Positions 6,201 to 11,884 of a stretch of 12,783 bases of DNA are shown here, piece after piece. Positions within the stretch are counted from its first letter, which is position 1, and the number at the start of each line of letters is the position of its first letter. Position numbers and translations under genes: made by a program. The notes under the pieces are model-generated. The model did not search any database, was not told where the DNA came from, and saw nothing but the letters and a program-made list of their open reading frames with translations. Source of the stretch: a virus (lineage: Duplodnaviria > Heunggongvirae > Uroviricota > Caudoviricetes); the IMG/VR virus record IMGVR_UViG_3300031772_000004, positions 106,710 through 119,492 of that record; one strand, 5' to 3'.

Positions 6201-6452
6201 ATGACAAATATATTAAATAATACAGACAAGCCAAATGTTCGCGTTACTATAAATGATACCAGCGAAGTTATTTGTGAACAATGCAGTGGTAATACATTTA
6301 TAGAATCAGTTTTGCTGAGAAAGGTTAGCGCCTTACTTACAGGAGCAGAAAAAGATGCTTATATCCCAATACCTGTATTCTGTTGCGTTAAGTGTAATGG
6401 TGTGAATAGTGAATTCATTCCCCTTGAATTAAAAAACAAAATTGTAACCTAG
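6201..6452 (+). CDS. Small zinc-ribbon protein
   Basis: Two CxxC pairs (CEQC, CVKC) in 83 aa. Confidence 0.75.
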   Translation: MTNILNNTDKPNVRVTINDTSEVICEQCSGNTFIESVLLRKVSALLTGAEKDAYIPIPVFCCVKCNGVNSEFIPLELKNKIVT

Positions 6453-6527
6453 GGGTTGTAGCTTAATTGGTAAAGCACCACAATGGCATTGTGGGGAGTG
6501 AGGGTTCAAGTCCCTTCAACTCCACCA
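6452..6527 (+). tRNA. tRNA-Ala(GGC), 76 nt, CCA encoded
   Basis: Full cloverleaf: acceptor GGGGTTG/CAACTCC with the G3:U70 alanine determinant, D-arm GCTT/AAGC, anticodon stem CCACA/TGTGG with loop ATGGCAT (A32-U38 as in bacterial tRNA-Ala GGC), T-arm GAGGG-TTCAAGT-CCCTT, then A73 and CCA. Confidence 0.97.
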
Positions 6528-8185: not shown

Positions 8186-8202
8186 TAATTTTTGTTCTTT
8201 AA

Positions 8203-8559
8203 AAATAAATATAGTCGATTGTTCGCGGCAACAATAGAAATGGCTTAAACCCTCTGGCGTTAAAGGAAAGCAACACGCCTTTTTACAGTTTTTTACCTAT
8301 ACGGTGGCTGCACACTACCTGTCAACAGGCACAAGTAAAAACGAAACTTAGTTGCGAGTTGGCGGCGAGGACGAACCAACCTATTGTTGCTGAGGAAATT
8401 CGCGTCTGCACAACCTAATGTGGCAGGATAATTCCGCTATGACCACAGAAGCAGCAATCTAAATTAGCTTAGTGTGTCGGTTGCACAATAATAGCTTGGT
8501 TAGAGCTCAGTCAAATGAACGATTAGAAACAAAAACGCGGTTATGAGCTATATTTATTT
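8203..8559 (+). ncRNA. rnpB: RNase P RNA, variant lacking most of the S-domain and carrying a 143-nt P3 insertion
   Basis: CR-I GAGGAAATTCGCGTCTGC (8392-8409) and CR-V ACAAAAACGCGGTTAT (8529-8544) align without gaps to E. coli GAGGAAAGUCCGGGCUCC and ACAGAACCCGGCUUAU, with compensatory changes in P4. Helices: P1 8203-8214/8548-8559 (12 perfect bp), P2 8217-8224/8517-8524, P3 8228-8237/8381-8390 (10 perfect bp), P4 8397-8405/8535-8542 with the bulged U, P5 8406-8409/8451-8454. J5/15 CAA and a CR-IV-like AGTCAAATG are present. Confidence 0.88.
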
Positions 8560-8664: not shown

Positions 8665-9528
8665 ATGATATTTATAATAGTGAAGTCATATACAATTGAT
8701 ACCATTTTAAAAGAAGTTTATTTAAATAAACCTGTAGACGAAGATCTCAACACAAAATTCTCTGATTTCACATCTTATTTGTCGGGTATGGCTAAAGGCG
8801 TCGTTGATAAACTGTTTTTCTTAAAATTCATCAAACCTGATATGCTTGTTGATTTTGGCTCAGCCGATGGATTTATCCTTAAACAAATTCACAAATATAA
8901 CCCAAACATAAATCTAATCGGATATGACATATCTCCCGATATGATTACAATAGCAAAAGAAAAGATTCCAGATATTCAATTTACAAATAATTGGTTAGAT
9001 GCAATTAAAGATGTCAAGCGTTATAAAAATTCCTGTTTATTACTATCATCTGTAATTCATGAAGTTTATTCCTATTCGACTTCTGAAGCCATCGAATATT
9101 TTTGGGAAAGTATATTTAATGCTGGTTTTGAATACATTGTCATCCGTGATACCATTCCATCAGAAAAAATTGAAAAGGTCATCAACTTCAAGAAGGATGT
9201 GGAGCAAGTCAAAAAAATTGTTGATCCAAAATTGTTAGATGATTATGAAAATAGTTGGGGACCAATTGATAAAAGTTATAAAAATTTCATTCGATTTGTA
9301 TTGATGTACAGATATAGAAATAATTGGTCGCGAGAAAGATTAGAAGATTATTTGTCATTAACATATGAATCAATGCTGCTTAAAATACTTCCAAAGTATA
9401 ATGACAGATACAAAATCATATACGATAAGAAATTTAAGTTTAAGCCAATCCAAACTTCTTTTGCAAAAGACTTTAATATACCATTACGACAAGATATTCA
9501 TTTGAAGATGATATTGCGACACAAATAA
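8665..9528 (+). CDS. Class I SAM-dependent methyltransferase (start may be GTG 8680)
   Basis: Motif I VDFGSADG, motif II GYDISPDMI, then LLLSSVIHEVYSY and IVIRD; substrate unknown. Confidence 0.8.
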   Translation: MIFIIVKSYTIDTILKEVYLNKPVDEDLNTKFSDFTSYLSGMAKGVVDKLFFLKFIKPDMLVDFGSADGFILKQIHKYNPNINLIGYDISPDMITIAKEKIPDIQFTNNWLDAIKDVKRYKNSCLLLSSVIHEVYSYSTSEAIEYFWESIFNAGFEYIVIRDTIPSEKIEKVINFKKDVEQVKKIVDPKLLDDYENSWGPIDKSYKNFIRFVLMYRYRNNWSRERLEDYLSLTYESMLLKILPKYNDRYKIIYDKKFKFKPIQTSFAKDFNIPLRQDIHLKMILRHK

Positions 9529-9589
9529 CTATTATAAATGGTTGATTATCAAGTAGTTATAAGAAAAGTAAAATTTTTGTAAAAAGGTG

Positions 9590-9617
9590 TTGACTTTTTA
9601 GTCCGAATCCATATACT
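9590..9617 (+). promoter_or_regulatory. Sigma70-like promoter TTGACT-N16-TATACT upstream of the giant ncRNA
   Basis: TTGACT 9590-9595 with an A-rich upstream tract, TATACT 9612-9617. Confidence 0.7.
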
Positions 9618-9623
9618 TATGTT

Positions 9624-10515
9624 TACTGATTTGAGATGTTCCTGTTCTTTGATTTTCGTTTTAAGGGCGGTATAGCGTCCTGATACTTCCGCAAGGGAGT
9701 ATTTAAGATAAACTGCAGTAATGCAGCCAAAGGGGTGAGTCCCAAGACTCTCCCGCCATTCAACTGGCCACCGATACAAAAGCAAGCTCTGTAAGCTTAT
9801 TTGGAAACAAATGAGATACATCTGAAGCTGGTTAGCAAACGAATCCGGTATGTGACGAACAGAAAGGTTCTAACTGTCACCCGACAGTTCTTACTAATGC
9901 CCACGCGGCAACAGTTAAGGTTAAGAGTTCAAGCGAAGTCGTTTAGTTCGAGCCTCGCAAGCAAGAGCTTAATGATAGATTGATAGAAAGTGGGCTGGGT
10001 TACTCTATGCACACAATCTTGAAAATCGGATGAGTACTCGCAAGGGAAAGTCAGGTGGTGTGTTGCATTCTGTAGCTGTAACAGGTTATGGAACAACTAG
10101 CAACGCACATCACACTTGGGTTTGACATAGCTCGATAGAGCGCTAGTATATTAAACTAGAGGTATGGCTTAACCGCCGTTCTCAATAAAATGCAAAGTCG
10201 TTGCTTCCGATAACGGAAAAAGTCTTAATTCTCTGCCCGCAAGGGAACAGAGACACTTGATTCTCGCAAGGATGATGGTGTCAGTACGGAGATTGACGGA
10301 GGGTGTCGCAGCTCTTACTGCTCGCAAGTCAGACGTTGGTTGAAATGCTGAATATGTTATCGGTAAACTTGAATCGCCTCAAGTATAAAAAGGCAGACCT
10401 GTTAAATACCTGATACGTTCCCAGCGGACGGTCAAGGTGGATAAGTGTGAAGGTATCTCGCAAGGATACGATAATACTTCAAGGTTAACATTTTAAGCTG
10501 TAGTCTCAGGCTTGA
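9624..10515 (+). ncRNA. Giant structured ncRNA (~890 nt), GOLLD/ROOL-like; exact family unconfirmed
   Basis: No credible ORF over about 1 kb in a gene-dense genome; visibly GC-richer than the flanks; seven C-GCAA-G tetraloop motifs (9690, 9956, 10039, 10238, 10265, 10323, 10459); further hairpins; long-range pairing TGAGATACA 9812-9820 with TGTAGTCTCA 10499-10508; own promoter. Ends are approximate. Confidence 0.75.
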
Positions 10516-10559
10516 TACTCCCCTCAACTAATATAAAAACTCCACACCTTTGAAAAATA

Positions 10560-10587
10560 TTGACTTGTATCTGAATTTGGATATATT
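10560..10587 (+). promoter_or_regulatory. Promoter TTGACT-N16-TATATT, overlapping a TATATTTAT motif
   Basis: TTGACT 10560-10565, TATATT 10582-10587; AAAGGA lies in the leader of the 10624 gene. Confidence 0.55.
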
Positions 10588-10623: not shown

Positions 10624-11814
10624 ATGAATAAAATAAAAGCATTATTTGCTATTCTTGCAATAGCAATCATATCTTCAACAGGATATGGACAAACACAAAG
10701 CGTCGTTCAAGTGCAGGCCGTTGCACCAGTAAAAACATCAATAATTGATGCGGCTATTAATTCTACTGTAATAGATTATACCACGGGAGCTTCAAAGCCT
10801 GTGGGTGAAGATAGTACATTAATAAATTCGTTTGGTGTCAATACAGTAATCCCCCTATTTAAAGATATTAAATTTCAATTGGGCGGAGACATTACAATAC
10901 GCGAAGATGGAAATCAATATGATTCCACATTCGGTTTCTTTACAAAGAAAGAAAAGTTTAGCATTGCCGCTTTAATTGATTATAGACGAACAGCCTATGA
11001 AAATGACTTGTTTTCTGTAAGACCAATTGTTGGCTACAATCTAAATGAAAAAATATCGTTTTATGGTGTTGGAAGAATACATTTAAATACAGATACCACC
11101 GCCAATATCAATGAGCAAATGATGGACCGCGGAGATTTACATGTAACATATCTTACCGATAATAGACTTCTAATTGATGGAAGCATTGGTTATATCTTTA
11201 ATGATGTAACAGAAACGGTATATGGCCTTTCTATATCAAAAGCATTAAAACTAGTGGATATTTTTGCTGGTGGAGAAATTGATAACGCTGGAAATTATGT
11301 TGTTAATTGCGGCGTTGCTCTTGGCCTTGGCGAGCGTTATGCAAGACATTCTACAGTTTATAACGCTAATCCAAATTCACCATTTCCAAAATACTCCTCA
11401 GCAACTTTGCTGACGGATTCATCAAATACTAAGCACGGAGGCAAAAATGGTCCACCGCCACCACCAAATCTTGTAACAGTTTGTTATAAAGGAGAGACTA
11501 TACAAATTCTAACAAAAGATTTGAAGAAATATTTGGCAAATGGAGCAACATTAGGTTCATGCAATGAGCCACCACCACCGCCAACCGAAGTAACTATTTG
11601 TTATAAAGGTGCAACAATTACCATTTTGTCAACACAATTGGCATGGTATTTATCTCACGGCGCAACGGTTGGACAGTGCTCAATAGAGCCACCACCTCCC
11701 GGCGGAGATCATAAAATAACATTGTGTCATAAAGGACGCACAATCAGTGTTGATTTACATTCGGCTCGTGCTCATTTAGCACATGGTGACACTCTGGGAC
11801 CTTGCCAAGAGTAA
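10624..11814 (+). CDS. Secreted/envelope protein: signal peptide, beta-strand-rich (possibly barrel-like) core and three C-terminal Cys-paired repeats
   Basis: MNKIK followed by a hydrophobic stretch and GYG-Q cleavage-like site; alternating hydrophobic strands; three poly-Pro-linked repeats. Confidence 0.7.
   Translation: MNKIKALFAILAIAIISSTGYGQTQSVVQVQAVAPVKTSIIDAAINSTVIDYTTGASKPVGEDSTLINSFGVNTVIPLFKDIKFQLGGDITIREDGNQYDSTFGFFTKKEKFSIAALIDYRRTAYENDLFSVRPIVGYNLNEKISFYGVGRIHLNTDTTANINEQMMDRGDLHVTYLTDNRLLIDGSIGYIFNDVTETVYGLSISKALKLVDIFAGGEIDNAGNYVVNCGVALGLGERYARHSTVYNANPNSPFPKYSSATLLTDSSNTKHGGKNGPPPPPNLVTVCYKGETIQILTKDLKKYLANGATLGSCNEPPPPPTEVTICYKGATITILSTQLAWYLSHGATVGQCSIEPPPPGGDHKITLCHKGRTISVDLHSARAHLAHGDTLGPCQE
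11452..11811 (+). repeat. Three tandem ~40-aa protein repeats PPPP-x-(V/I)T(V/I/L)C(Y/H)KGxTI...(Y/H)LxxGxT(L/V)GxC
   Basis: Repeats start at 11452, 11569 and 11689; each has two conserved Cys. Confidence 0.85.
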
Positions 11815-11840
11815 TTGATAGTTAATACATAATCATAAGG

Positions 11841-11870
11841 AAAACCGGCATTTTTTAGTGCCGGTTTTTC
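11841..11870. terminator. Intrinsic terminator-like hairpin, possibly bidirectional
   Basis: AAAACCGGCA (11841-11850) pairs perfectly with TGCCGGTTTT (11859-11868), 8-nt loop, A and T tracts on either side. Confidence 0.75.
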
Positions 11871-11884
11871 TATTTATATTGTAT

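What the first reader, a model, noticed from the sequence alone, without database searches (positions are those of the whole stretch)
9624..10515. Giant (~890 nt) GNRA-rich ornate ncRNA with its own promoter
Seen: a 1.09-kb gap between protein genes, a clear promoter, and seven CGCAAG hexamers where roughly 0.2 would be expected by chance in 900 nt. Strong hairpins include GATACTTCC-GCAA-GGGAGTATT (9682-9703), CTGCA-GTAA-TGCAG (9713-9726), CTCTG-CCC-GCAA-GGG-AA-CAGAG (10231-10252) and GTGTGTTGC/GCAACGCAC. A ~680-nt-range pairing links 9812-9820 with 10499-10508. Established: GOLLD (~800 nt) and ROOL (~600 nt) RNAs are large, GNRA-rich, often phage-encoded and near tRNA genes, with unknown function. 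Inference: GOLLD-like by size and context, but it could be a divergent or new class. Its co-location with a variant RNase P is notable.
Basis: partly seen in the sequence, partly recalled or inferred. Interest (0 to 1): 0.75.

Follow-up and report, generated by a model that had tools for sequence, protein, structure and literature searches.

The report
Phage GOLLD RNA, decayed tRNA arm
The gene-free stretch encodes an ordinary full-length member of GOLLD, a known family of giant phage RNAs that assemble into hollow RNA-only cages of unknown purpose, and this copy carries a worn-down tRNA-shaped arm in its internal linker.

Summary
The feature is real but it is not a new class. An alignment of 34 phage and metagenomic GOLLDs extends the RNA 5' to about 9665, giving about 848 nt (env-38 GOLLD is 833). 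The window keeps 44 of 54 consensus 5'-domain pairs, 17 by compensatory change. 9624-9664 is an unconserved leader holding a boxA-like motif. The seven CGCAAG are real (0.25 expected). The proposed 9812/10499 long-range pairing is not supported, and co-location with RNase P is not conserved (0 of 86 loci). In 72 relatives it keeps the elbow but has a frayed acceptor, almost no CCA (3/72 against 522/590 free tRNAs) and a drifting anticodon; here the elbow has decayed too. Embedded tRNAs in GOLLD are published, and this scan noted both the arm and the boxA leader before on other genomes. Verdict: new member of a known family; low to modest interest.

The parts
9590..9617 (+). sigma70-type promoter-like site (-35 at 9590-9595, -10 at 9612-9617); start of transcription inferred near 9624
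   Evidence: 10/12, not above chance window-wide; many relatives have a similar site just upstream of the RNA core; start not measured
9624..9664 (+). U-rich leader, not conserved in sequence, probably not part of the folded RNA
   Evidence: conservation starts at the first hairpin; several relatives have their promoter 5-10 nt before it
9644..9652 (+). boxA-like motif GTTCTTTGA (first 7 positions match the GYTCTTTAANA consensus; 3' end departs)
   Evidence: same motif at -21 to -27 in 11 of 46 loci and further upstream in 8 more; the 9-mer occurs 3 times on + in the 119-kb record, two of them before this window's RNA genes; consensus from bioRxiv 10.1101/091223
9665..10052 (+). GOLLD 5' (cap) domain, outside the Rfam model
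   Evidence: 44/54 consensus pairs kept, 17 compensatory; 95% of cells paired against 36-40% with slid partners
9682..9703 (+). GCAA-capped hairpin inserted only in this copy
   Evidence: gap in all 33 relatives
9791..9935 (+). divergent central part of the 5' domain, shared in type only with L173
   Evidence: 7/37 main-clade consensus pairs, median identity 30%; nested helices shared with L173; remodelling versus misalignment not settled
10053..10512 (+). GOLLD conserved 3' region (Rfam RF02032, model positions 1-416)
   Evidence: 183.1 bits, gathering 150, E 1.4e-50
10099..10105 (+). bulge strand of the long hairpin that pairs with 10199-10205 (pseudoknot closing the linker)
   Evidence: all 7 pairs formed in the window, 32-33 of 33 relatives at each, several pair types; A10099-U10205 reads G-C in both spanning contigs of run X2
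10121..10187 (+). decayed tRNA-shaped arm in the variable linker: perfect D and anticodon stems, anticodon position AUU (10150-10152), 4-nt D-loop without GG, 6-nt T-loop without UUC, 5/7 acceptor pairs, no CCA
   Evidence: tRNA 30.6 bits, gathering 29; ARAGORN misses it; for the same arm in relatives
10207..10363 (+). 9-bp helix 10207-10215/10355-10363 enclosing three hairpins, three CGCAAG among them
   Evidence: 291/297 cells paired, strong covariation
10367..10394 (+). small pseudoknot (10367-10371 with 10380-10384; 10376-10378 with 10392-10394), probably the L22-J17/22 contact of the env-38 structure
   Evidence: covarying, kept in the window; the naming is my inference from the text of 10.1101/2024.12.08.627333
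10497..10511 (+). terminal hairpin with the conserved GOLLD 3' loop
   Evidence: 73/73 cells paired

Best explanation
A full-length GOLLD RNA gene of a large phage (119-kb record, estimated 39% complete). Shown here: family membership, a conserved and covarying two-domain fold over about 9665-10512, a boxA-like leader, and a tRNA-shaped arm in the linker that lacks the acceptor end and CCA. Inferred from position: host sigma70-type polymerase transcribes it from about 9624, and the boxA-like motif recruits the Nus anti-termination complex as on rRNA operons, so that a long untranslated RNA is finished and folded. Inferred from solved GOLLDs: the 5' domains form the cap and the 3' domains the ring of a hollow homo-oligomer (12 or 14 copies in the two full-length structures), held by A-minor and kissing-loop contacts for which GCAA-type loops are typical donors, with the linker arm tethered inside. 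My committed guess at purpose (about 35%): an abundant structural RNA of lytic infection that holds a tRNA-shaped surface, or other cargo, in a shielded compartment, acting as a mimic and not as a source of working tRNA. In this phage the arm has lost its elbow motifs, so it is probably a relic and the cage is what selection keeps. The confidence given is for membership plus cage-type architecture, not for the purpose.
For: Full-model Rfam hit above the cut-off. Length 848 nt; relatives 811-880 nt; env-38 833 nt. 174 consensus pairs, 140 with double-sided changes, covariation term -45.9 kcal/mol. The window forms 70/82 consensus pairs of the 3' domain and 23/27 of the long hairpin and 44/54 of the 5' set. 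Both pseudoknots are kept. Contigs of three sediment RNA libraries from three studies lie on pieces of 9705-10396, one 197 nt with 3 differences and one bridging 9765-10245 across the domain border, with compensatory changes such as C10070-G10091 to U-A. Arm statistics in 72 loci against 590 free tRNAs from the same loci: outer acceptor pairs 0.54/0.35/0.61 against 0.89-0.94; CCA 3/72 against 522/590; same anticodon on identical stems 5/14 against 61/61; T-loop TTC 68/72 and D-loop GG 66/72 kept. Cage, interior linker, rise during lysis and ribosome pull-down as reported in PMC12286853 and PMC12990946.
Against: No oligomer, start or end was measured for this RNA. The RNA runs are contigs: they give no strand, ends or level, may include DNA, and were picked for holding this stretch. 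The central 5' part (9791-9935) fits the main-clade consensus poorly (7/37), so cap contacts and copy number may differ. The boxA match is imperfect and present near the start in only 11 of 46 loci, which are related. I could not align to env-38 itself, so the intermolecular bridges were not checked one by one. About 15 of 87 related GOLLDs lack a recognisable arm, which argues that it is not needed for the core function.
Confidence: 0.85

Rival explanations
1. A new class of giant ornate RNA that only resembles GOLLD, or a GOLLD 3' domain fused to an unrelated 5' RNA.
For: Rfam covers only 10053-10512; no hit among 50,697 GenBank phages by blastn; the central 5' part is divergent.
Against: The hit is full-model and 33 bits above the cut-off. 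Both ends of the 5' domain align and covary with 33 other GOLLDs. A variable 5' domain is a stated property of the family. The Rfam model is simply the 3' half.
Confidence: 0.03
2. GOLLD is a storage precursor: the linker arm is a real tRNA (Asn by its AUU anticodon) kept in the cage and later cut out, perhaps by the nearby phage RNase P ('inhibited storage', suggested in PMC12990946).
For: tRNA model 30.6 bits, just above gathering; relatives score 42-56 bits with intact D, anticodon and T arms; a mini RNase P-like gene lies about 1.1 kb upstream.
Against: In this copy no CCA, a mismatch next to the junction in the acceptor, and no D-loop GG or T-loop UUC. Across the clade the acceptor frays at the outer three pairs, CCA is 3/72 while free tRNAs beside them have it in 88%, and anticodons change on identical bodies, including stop-reading ones and 8-nt loops. 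No RNase P homologue in 86 other loci. No separate pseudo-tRNA was detected in Mycobacterium aubagnense (PMC6582537).
Confidence: 0.07
3. The arm is an active decoy in this phage too: a tRNA mimic whose fast-changing anticodon loop or elbow binds host tRNA-targeting defence nucleases or the ribosome when the cage opens.
For: Clade-wide elbow conservation with over 20 anticodons, mostly Lys, Arg and Asn types; ribosome pull-down cited for GOLLD; D and anticodon stems are still perfect in the window.
Against: The window's own elbow is lost. Anticodon variability is equally explained by relaxed selection. The linker faces the cage interior. Nothing here links the loop to a nuclease, and no fixed intramolecular partner covaries with the anticodon (best column 11/25).
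Confidence: 0.2
4. A decaying, non-functional GOLLD pseudogene.
For: Decayed arm, a private insertion and a divergent centre.
Against: 17 compensatory changes in the 5' set and 70/82 3' pairs kept; a 98.5% identical piece of the divergent centre is in an RNA library.
Confidence: 0.04

Closest known systems
GOLLD RNA, Rfam RF02032; env-38 GOLLD (833 nt, 14-mer, PDB 9MEE) and Streptococcus agalactiae GOLLD (700 nt, 12-mer, 9L0R), as listed in PMC12990946 and PMC12286853
   Same: Full-model 3' domain, about 850 nt, two domains, variable internal linker, terminal loop, small 3' pseudoknot, phage-encoded, tRNA-type genes within a few kb.
   Different: A 22-nt hairpin inserted after the first helix; a central 5' part unlike the main related clade; not inside a dense tRNA array (one canonical tRNA 3.1 kb upstream and one atypical one); oligomer state untested.
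GOLLD with a tRNA or pseudo-tRNA embedded in the linker (Mycobacterium tRNA arrays: PMC6582537; tRNA-Phe in J13/15 per Morgado 2020 as cited in PMC12990946; PMC12286853 Fig. 4c)
   Same: tRNA-shaped element at the same place in the linker, predicted to point into the cage.
   Different: Here it is further decayed (no elbow motifs). The clade-level pattern measured here (frayed outer acceptor, no CCA, anticodon not tied to body) is not described in the papers I could read; I could not read Weinberg 2009 or Morgado 2020 in full.
rRNA operon leader boxA (Nus/SuhB anti-termination; PMC10250234, bioRxiv 10.1101/091223)
   Same: Motif about 20 nt after the inferred start of a long untranslated RNA; several relatives have a hairpin just before it, like boxB-boxA.
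   Different: Imperfect 3' half in this copy, no clear boxB hairpin; function untested.
ROOL, OLE, HEARO, group I/II introns
   Same: Large, hairpin-rich RNAs; ROOL also forms cages.
   Different: No match to any of these Rfam models at E up to 10.

Membership tests
GOLLD (RF02032) | Match to the conserved 3' domain covariance model above the gathering score | tested here: met
   183.1 bits against 150, model 1-416, not truncated
GOLLD (RF02032) | Total length about 700-900 nt with a structured, less conserved 5' domain | tested here: met
   848 nt; 44/54 5' consensus pairs, 17 compensatory
GOLLD (RF02032) | Covarying helices and pseudoknots of the 3' domain | tested here: met
   70/82 pairs; two pseudoknots kept
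GOLLD (RF02032) | Variable linker, sometimes with a tRNA | tested here: met
   10117-10190 with tRNA-shaped arm
GOLLD (RF02032) | Phage or prophage context, often near tRNA genes | tested here: met
   virus record; tRNA-Ala at 6452-6527; no dense array in this fragment
GOLLD (RF02032) | Expressed as a discrete long RNA | tested here: inconclusive
   homologous contigs in three RNA libraries; no strand, ends or level
GOLLD (RF02032) | Homo-oligomeric nanocage; each intermolecular bridge conserved | not testable with these tools
   needs mass photometry or cryo-EM; env-38 sequence not on hand by reference
ROOL / OLE / HEARO / self-splicing introns | Match to their Rfam models | tested here: not met
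   none at E up to 10 on 9560-10560
Functional tRNA (linker arm) | 7-bp acceptor stem with CCA or a clean site for its addition | tested here: not met
   5/7 pairs, mismatch at the second pair from the junction, no CCA
Functional tRNA (linker arm) | D-loop GG and T-loop UUC elbow | tested here: not met
   4-nt D-loop, 6-nt T-loop without UUC; ARAGORN misses it
Functional tRNA (linker arm) | D stem and 5-bp anticodon stem with 7-nt loop, U33, purine 37 | tested here: met
rrn-type boxA | GYTCTTTAANA shortly after the start of transcription | tested here: inconclusive
   first 7 positions match, then departs; positionally conserved in 11/46 loci; Nus binding untested

The most novel reading that the evidence does not exclude
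In this phage clade the GOLLD linker arm is a selected tRNA mimic, not a stored tRNA: the elbow is kept, the acceptor end is dropped and the anticodon loop changes freely, so the cage would carry 12-14 tethered decoys for host factors that read tRNA shape (anticodon nucleases, ribosome sites). The window would be a natural variant that has lost the elbow and remodelled the cap, a ready-made control for testing what the arm does.
Probability: 0.2. Interest if true: 0.7.

Novelty: new member of a known kind. Interest (0 to 1): 0.25.

Why it matters
As a single locus it matters little: one more GOLLD. Its use is comparative. GOLLD's function is still open, and the set gathered here (72 linker arms against 590 neighbouring free tRNAs) argues with numbers against the published idea that the cage stores a tRNA for later release and for a tethered, non-decoding arm that can decay or be lost. 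This copy, with a decayed elbow, an extra GCAA hairpin and a divergent cap centre, would be a useful natural variant for cage stoichiometry and arm-function tests.

Tried and rejected
Pattern scans gave chance matches or nothing; L474 and L475 hold no GOLLD. Long-range 9812/10499 pairing rejected. A 4-bp pairing of 9706-9709 with the terminal loop holds in 123/132 cells but only by one-sided changes against an invariant pyrimidine run, and the solved structure uses that loop within the 3' domain; left as unproven. My first registers for four helices were off and were redone; my attempt to place the terminal-loop contact on 10438-10441 gave only two invariant pairs and says nothing. Anticodon pairing back to a fixed GOLLD site: not found in this clade. 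18-nt inverted repeat flanking the gene (9583-9600/10534-10551): in 1 of 56 loci (this one) and 6 of 200 shuffles, taken as probable chance. RNase P co-location: 0 of 86 loci by nhmmer and motif, 48 with at least 2 kb upstream; single-sequence query, so distant copies could be missed. No flanking window protein matched those loci by tblastn. Protein genes beside the RNA had almost no cover in the RNA runs, but a part without cover proves nothing. Three MAG contigs with this GOLLD type carry three unrelated taxon labels, so no host is inferred. No Gp23, terminase or NusG in the fragment. Two linker parses (L350, L214) were dropped as false. Loci were found with patterns drawn from this clade, so the fraction with an arm is not a family-wide figure, and related sequences are not independent.

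Full report
Observation. The gap between the 287-aa ORF ending at 9528 and the 396-aa ORF starting at 10624 is 1095 nt, and no ORF over 90 aa lies in it. GC rises to 0.43-0.45 from about 0.32. All seven CGCAAG hexamers of the window fall in 9690-10464 on the + strand; 0.25 are expected in shuffles of the region and none of 5000 shuffles reached seven. The whole stretch folds better than 20 of 20 shuffles (z -2.5). The promoter-like site at 9590-9617 matches 10 of 12 consensus positions, but such sites are near chance frequency in this AT-rich window (74 against 60.5).

Identity. Rfam GOLLD (RF02032) matches 10053-10512 across model positions 1-416 at 183.1 bits against a cut-off of 150, E 1.4e-50. 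It is the only such match in the record, a linear 119,492-nt virus contig estimated 39% complete. No ROOL, OLE, HEARO or intron model matches at E up to 10. [quoted passage not shown]

Extent and fold. Pattern scans of viral and metagenome contigs and a profile search gave about 87 non-identical related GOLLD loci; twelve that I checked all pass the Rfam cut-off. Conservation begins at the hairpin 9665-9680, so the conserved RNA is about 848 nt; relatives are 811-880 nt and env-38 is 833 nt. On 34 full-length sequences RNAalifold predicts 174 pairs, 140 with double-sided changes. Of 54 consensus pairs in the alignable 5' domain the window forms 44, 17 of them changed on both sides from the commonest pair; 95% of cells pair against 36-40% with slid partners, though the structure was derived from this alignment, which favours it. 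In the 3' domain the window forms 70 of 82. It keeps two pseudoknots: 10099-10105 with 10199-10205, and 10367-10371 with 10380-10384 crossing 10376-10378/10392-10394. The second probably corresponds to the L22-J17/22 contact of the cryo-EM structure (my inference). Two features are particular: the 9682-9703 hairpin is absent from all 33 relatives, and 9791-9935 fits the main clade poorly (7 of 37 pairs) but shares nested helices with the closest relative L173. Whether this is remodelling or misalignment is not settled.

The 9812-9820/10499-10508 pairing is matched by 77 of 100 shuffles and is not positionally kept in relatives; its 5' arm overlaps a local hairpin shared with L173, and in env-38 the terminal loop is engaged within the 3' domain. 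The inner half of the GTGTGTTGC helix holds in 37% of cells, because that strand forms the first pseudoknot. Several CGCAAG sites are drawn by Rfam as 5-nt CGCAA loops and not as strict tetraloops.

The linker arm. A tRNA model scores 30.6 bits at 10121-10187; ARAGORN misses it. Relatives carry clearer copies at the same place. Parsing without using the acceptor found the arm in 72 loci. Against 590 free tRNAs from the same loci: the inner four acceptor pairs hold (0.90-0.99) but the outer three do not (0.54, 0.35, 0.61 against 0.89-0.94); CCA is encoded in 3/72 against 522/590; T-loop TTC (68/72) and D-loop GG (66/72) are kept; and among pairs with identical stem letters the anticodon is the same in 5/14 against 61/61. 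So the arm is tRNA-shaped at the elbow, open at the acceptor end and indifferent to its anticodon: it does not look like a decoding tRNA. In the window the D and anticodon stems are perfect, but the D-loop has shrunk to 4 nt, the T-loop has lost UUC, and there is no CCA. About 15 relatives have no recognisable arm. Embedded tRNAs or pseudo-tRNAs in GOLLD are published; in M. aubagnense no separate product was detected. Earlier agents of this scan reported the frayed acceptor on other genomes; my counts were made before I read those notes. One note proposed that the anticodon pairs back onto GOLLD; I found no such covarying site in this clade (best 11/25).

Leader. 9624-9664 is unconserved but holds GTTCTTTGA at 9644. 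The same motif sits 21-27 nt before the first hairpin in 11 of 46 loci and 108-166 nt before it in 8 more. The 9-mer occurs three times on + in the 119-kb record; two are before this RNA and before the RNase P-like gene (8194). It matches the first seven positions of the boxA consensus GYTCTTTAANA, the element necessary and sufficient for the rRNA anti-termination complex in E. coli. Use of host Nus factors is an inference. Other relatives start 5-10 nt before the first hairpin with no leader, which supports 9665 as the functional start. The scan has noted boxA before GOLLD on other genomes.

Expression. Three sediment RNA libraries from three studies hold homologous contigs over pieces of 9705-10396, including 197 nt with three differences at 9822-10018 and a 479-nt piece bridging the two domains; both spanning contigs of X2 carry the compensatory pairs U10070-A10091 and G10099-C10205. 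These are contigs chosen for holding the stretch, so they show presence in RNA libraries, not strand, ends or level.

RNase P. A weak RNase P match lies at 8344-8555 (35 bits, below cut-off), studied by another agent. It has its own promoter-like site and a methyltransferase-like gene separates it from GOLLD. None of 86 other GOLLD loci showed a homologue. The co-location is therefore best read as general clustering of phage RNA genes.

How it works. Shown: a conserved GOLLD fold with a non-chargeable arm. Inferred by homology to the env-38 14-mer and the S. agalactiae 12-mer: 5' domains form the cap, 3' domains the ring, A-minor and kissing-loop contacts join the chains, and the linker lies inside. 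Reported for the family: expression rises during lysis, ribosomes come down in pull-downs, function unknown. My best guess at purpose (about 35%) is a shielded compartment presenting a tRNA-shaped surface or cargo during infection, with this copy's arm a relic. Storage of a releasable tRNA is unlikely here (7%); an active decoy in this copy is possible (20%).

Verdict. A real, full-length GOLLD: new member of a known kind. Interest 0.25, mostly for its value as a natural variant and for the clade-level arm statistics, both of which the scan has partly seen before.

Noticed in passing
window 8194-8205: GTTCTTTAAAAA, a near-perfect boxA, at the 5' edge of the RNase P-like gene; the only such 11-mer on + in the 119-kb record.
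   Followed up: partly
window 9583-9600 and 10534-10551: 18-nt inverted repeat (16/18) flanking the GOLLD gene; the left arm includes the -35 box. Seen in no other of 56 loci and in 6/200 shuffles; probably chance.
   Followed up: yes
window 9706-9709 with 10503-10506: Possible 4-bp 5'-3' pairing kept in 123/132 cells but with one-sided changes only; unproven.
   Followed up: partly
L297, L347, L355, L352, L310, L375, L407, L359, 20-170 nt upstream of GOLLD: Between boxA and GOLLD lies a short structured element, in several ending in a T-arm-like hairpin; it may be a second tRNA-like module.
   Followed up: no
L302, L361 (linker arms); L374, L316, L326 (8-nt loops): Arms with CUA or UCA anticodons or 8-nt loops would be called suppressor, Pyl or Sec tRNAs by ARAGORN; they are GOLLD linker arms and no evidence of recoding.
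   Followed up: partly
L002, L148, L214, L320, L406, L363, L299 linker: Shortened linkers with one or two small hairpins in place of the cloverleaf: apparent independent stages of arm loss.
   Followed up: no
relatives, alignment A3 columns about 330-360: A hairpin loop (TGG core) complementary to a downstream CCA, with variants changing together; this likely kissing or pseudoknot contact has no clear counterpart in the window or L173.
   Followed up: no
run X3, joint 9934-10083: One contig skips 148 nt of the 5' domain; could be a shorter GOLLD variant or an assembly artefact at 80% likeness.
   Followed up: no
L139 9327-9709; L276 11219-11698: Permuted (two-piece, alphaproteobacterial type) tmRNA genes in GOLLD-bearing contigs.
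   Followed up: no
window 6452-6527: Canonical tRNA-Ala(GGC) with encoded CCA, the only tRNA ARAGORN finds in the window.
   Followed up: no
window 10624-11814: 396-aa protein with a signal-peptide-like start, a beta-barrel-like middle and proline-linked C-terminal repeats with Cys and His; no Pfam match. An intrinsic-terminator-like hairpin follows at 11838-11871; none follows GOLLD itself.
   Followed up: no
L431, L423, L460: GOLLDs of this clade on contigs binned into Rickettsiales, Gammaproteobacteria and Saprospiraceae MAGs; probably phage contigs, host unclear.
   Followed up: no
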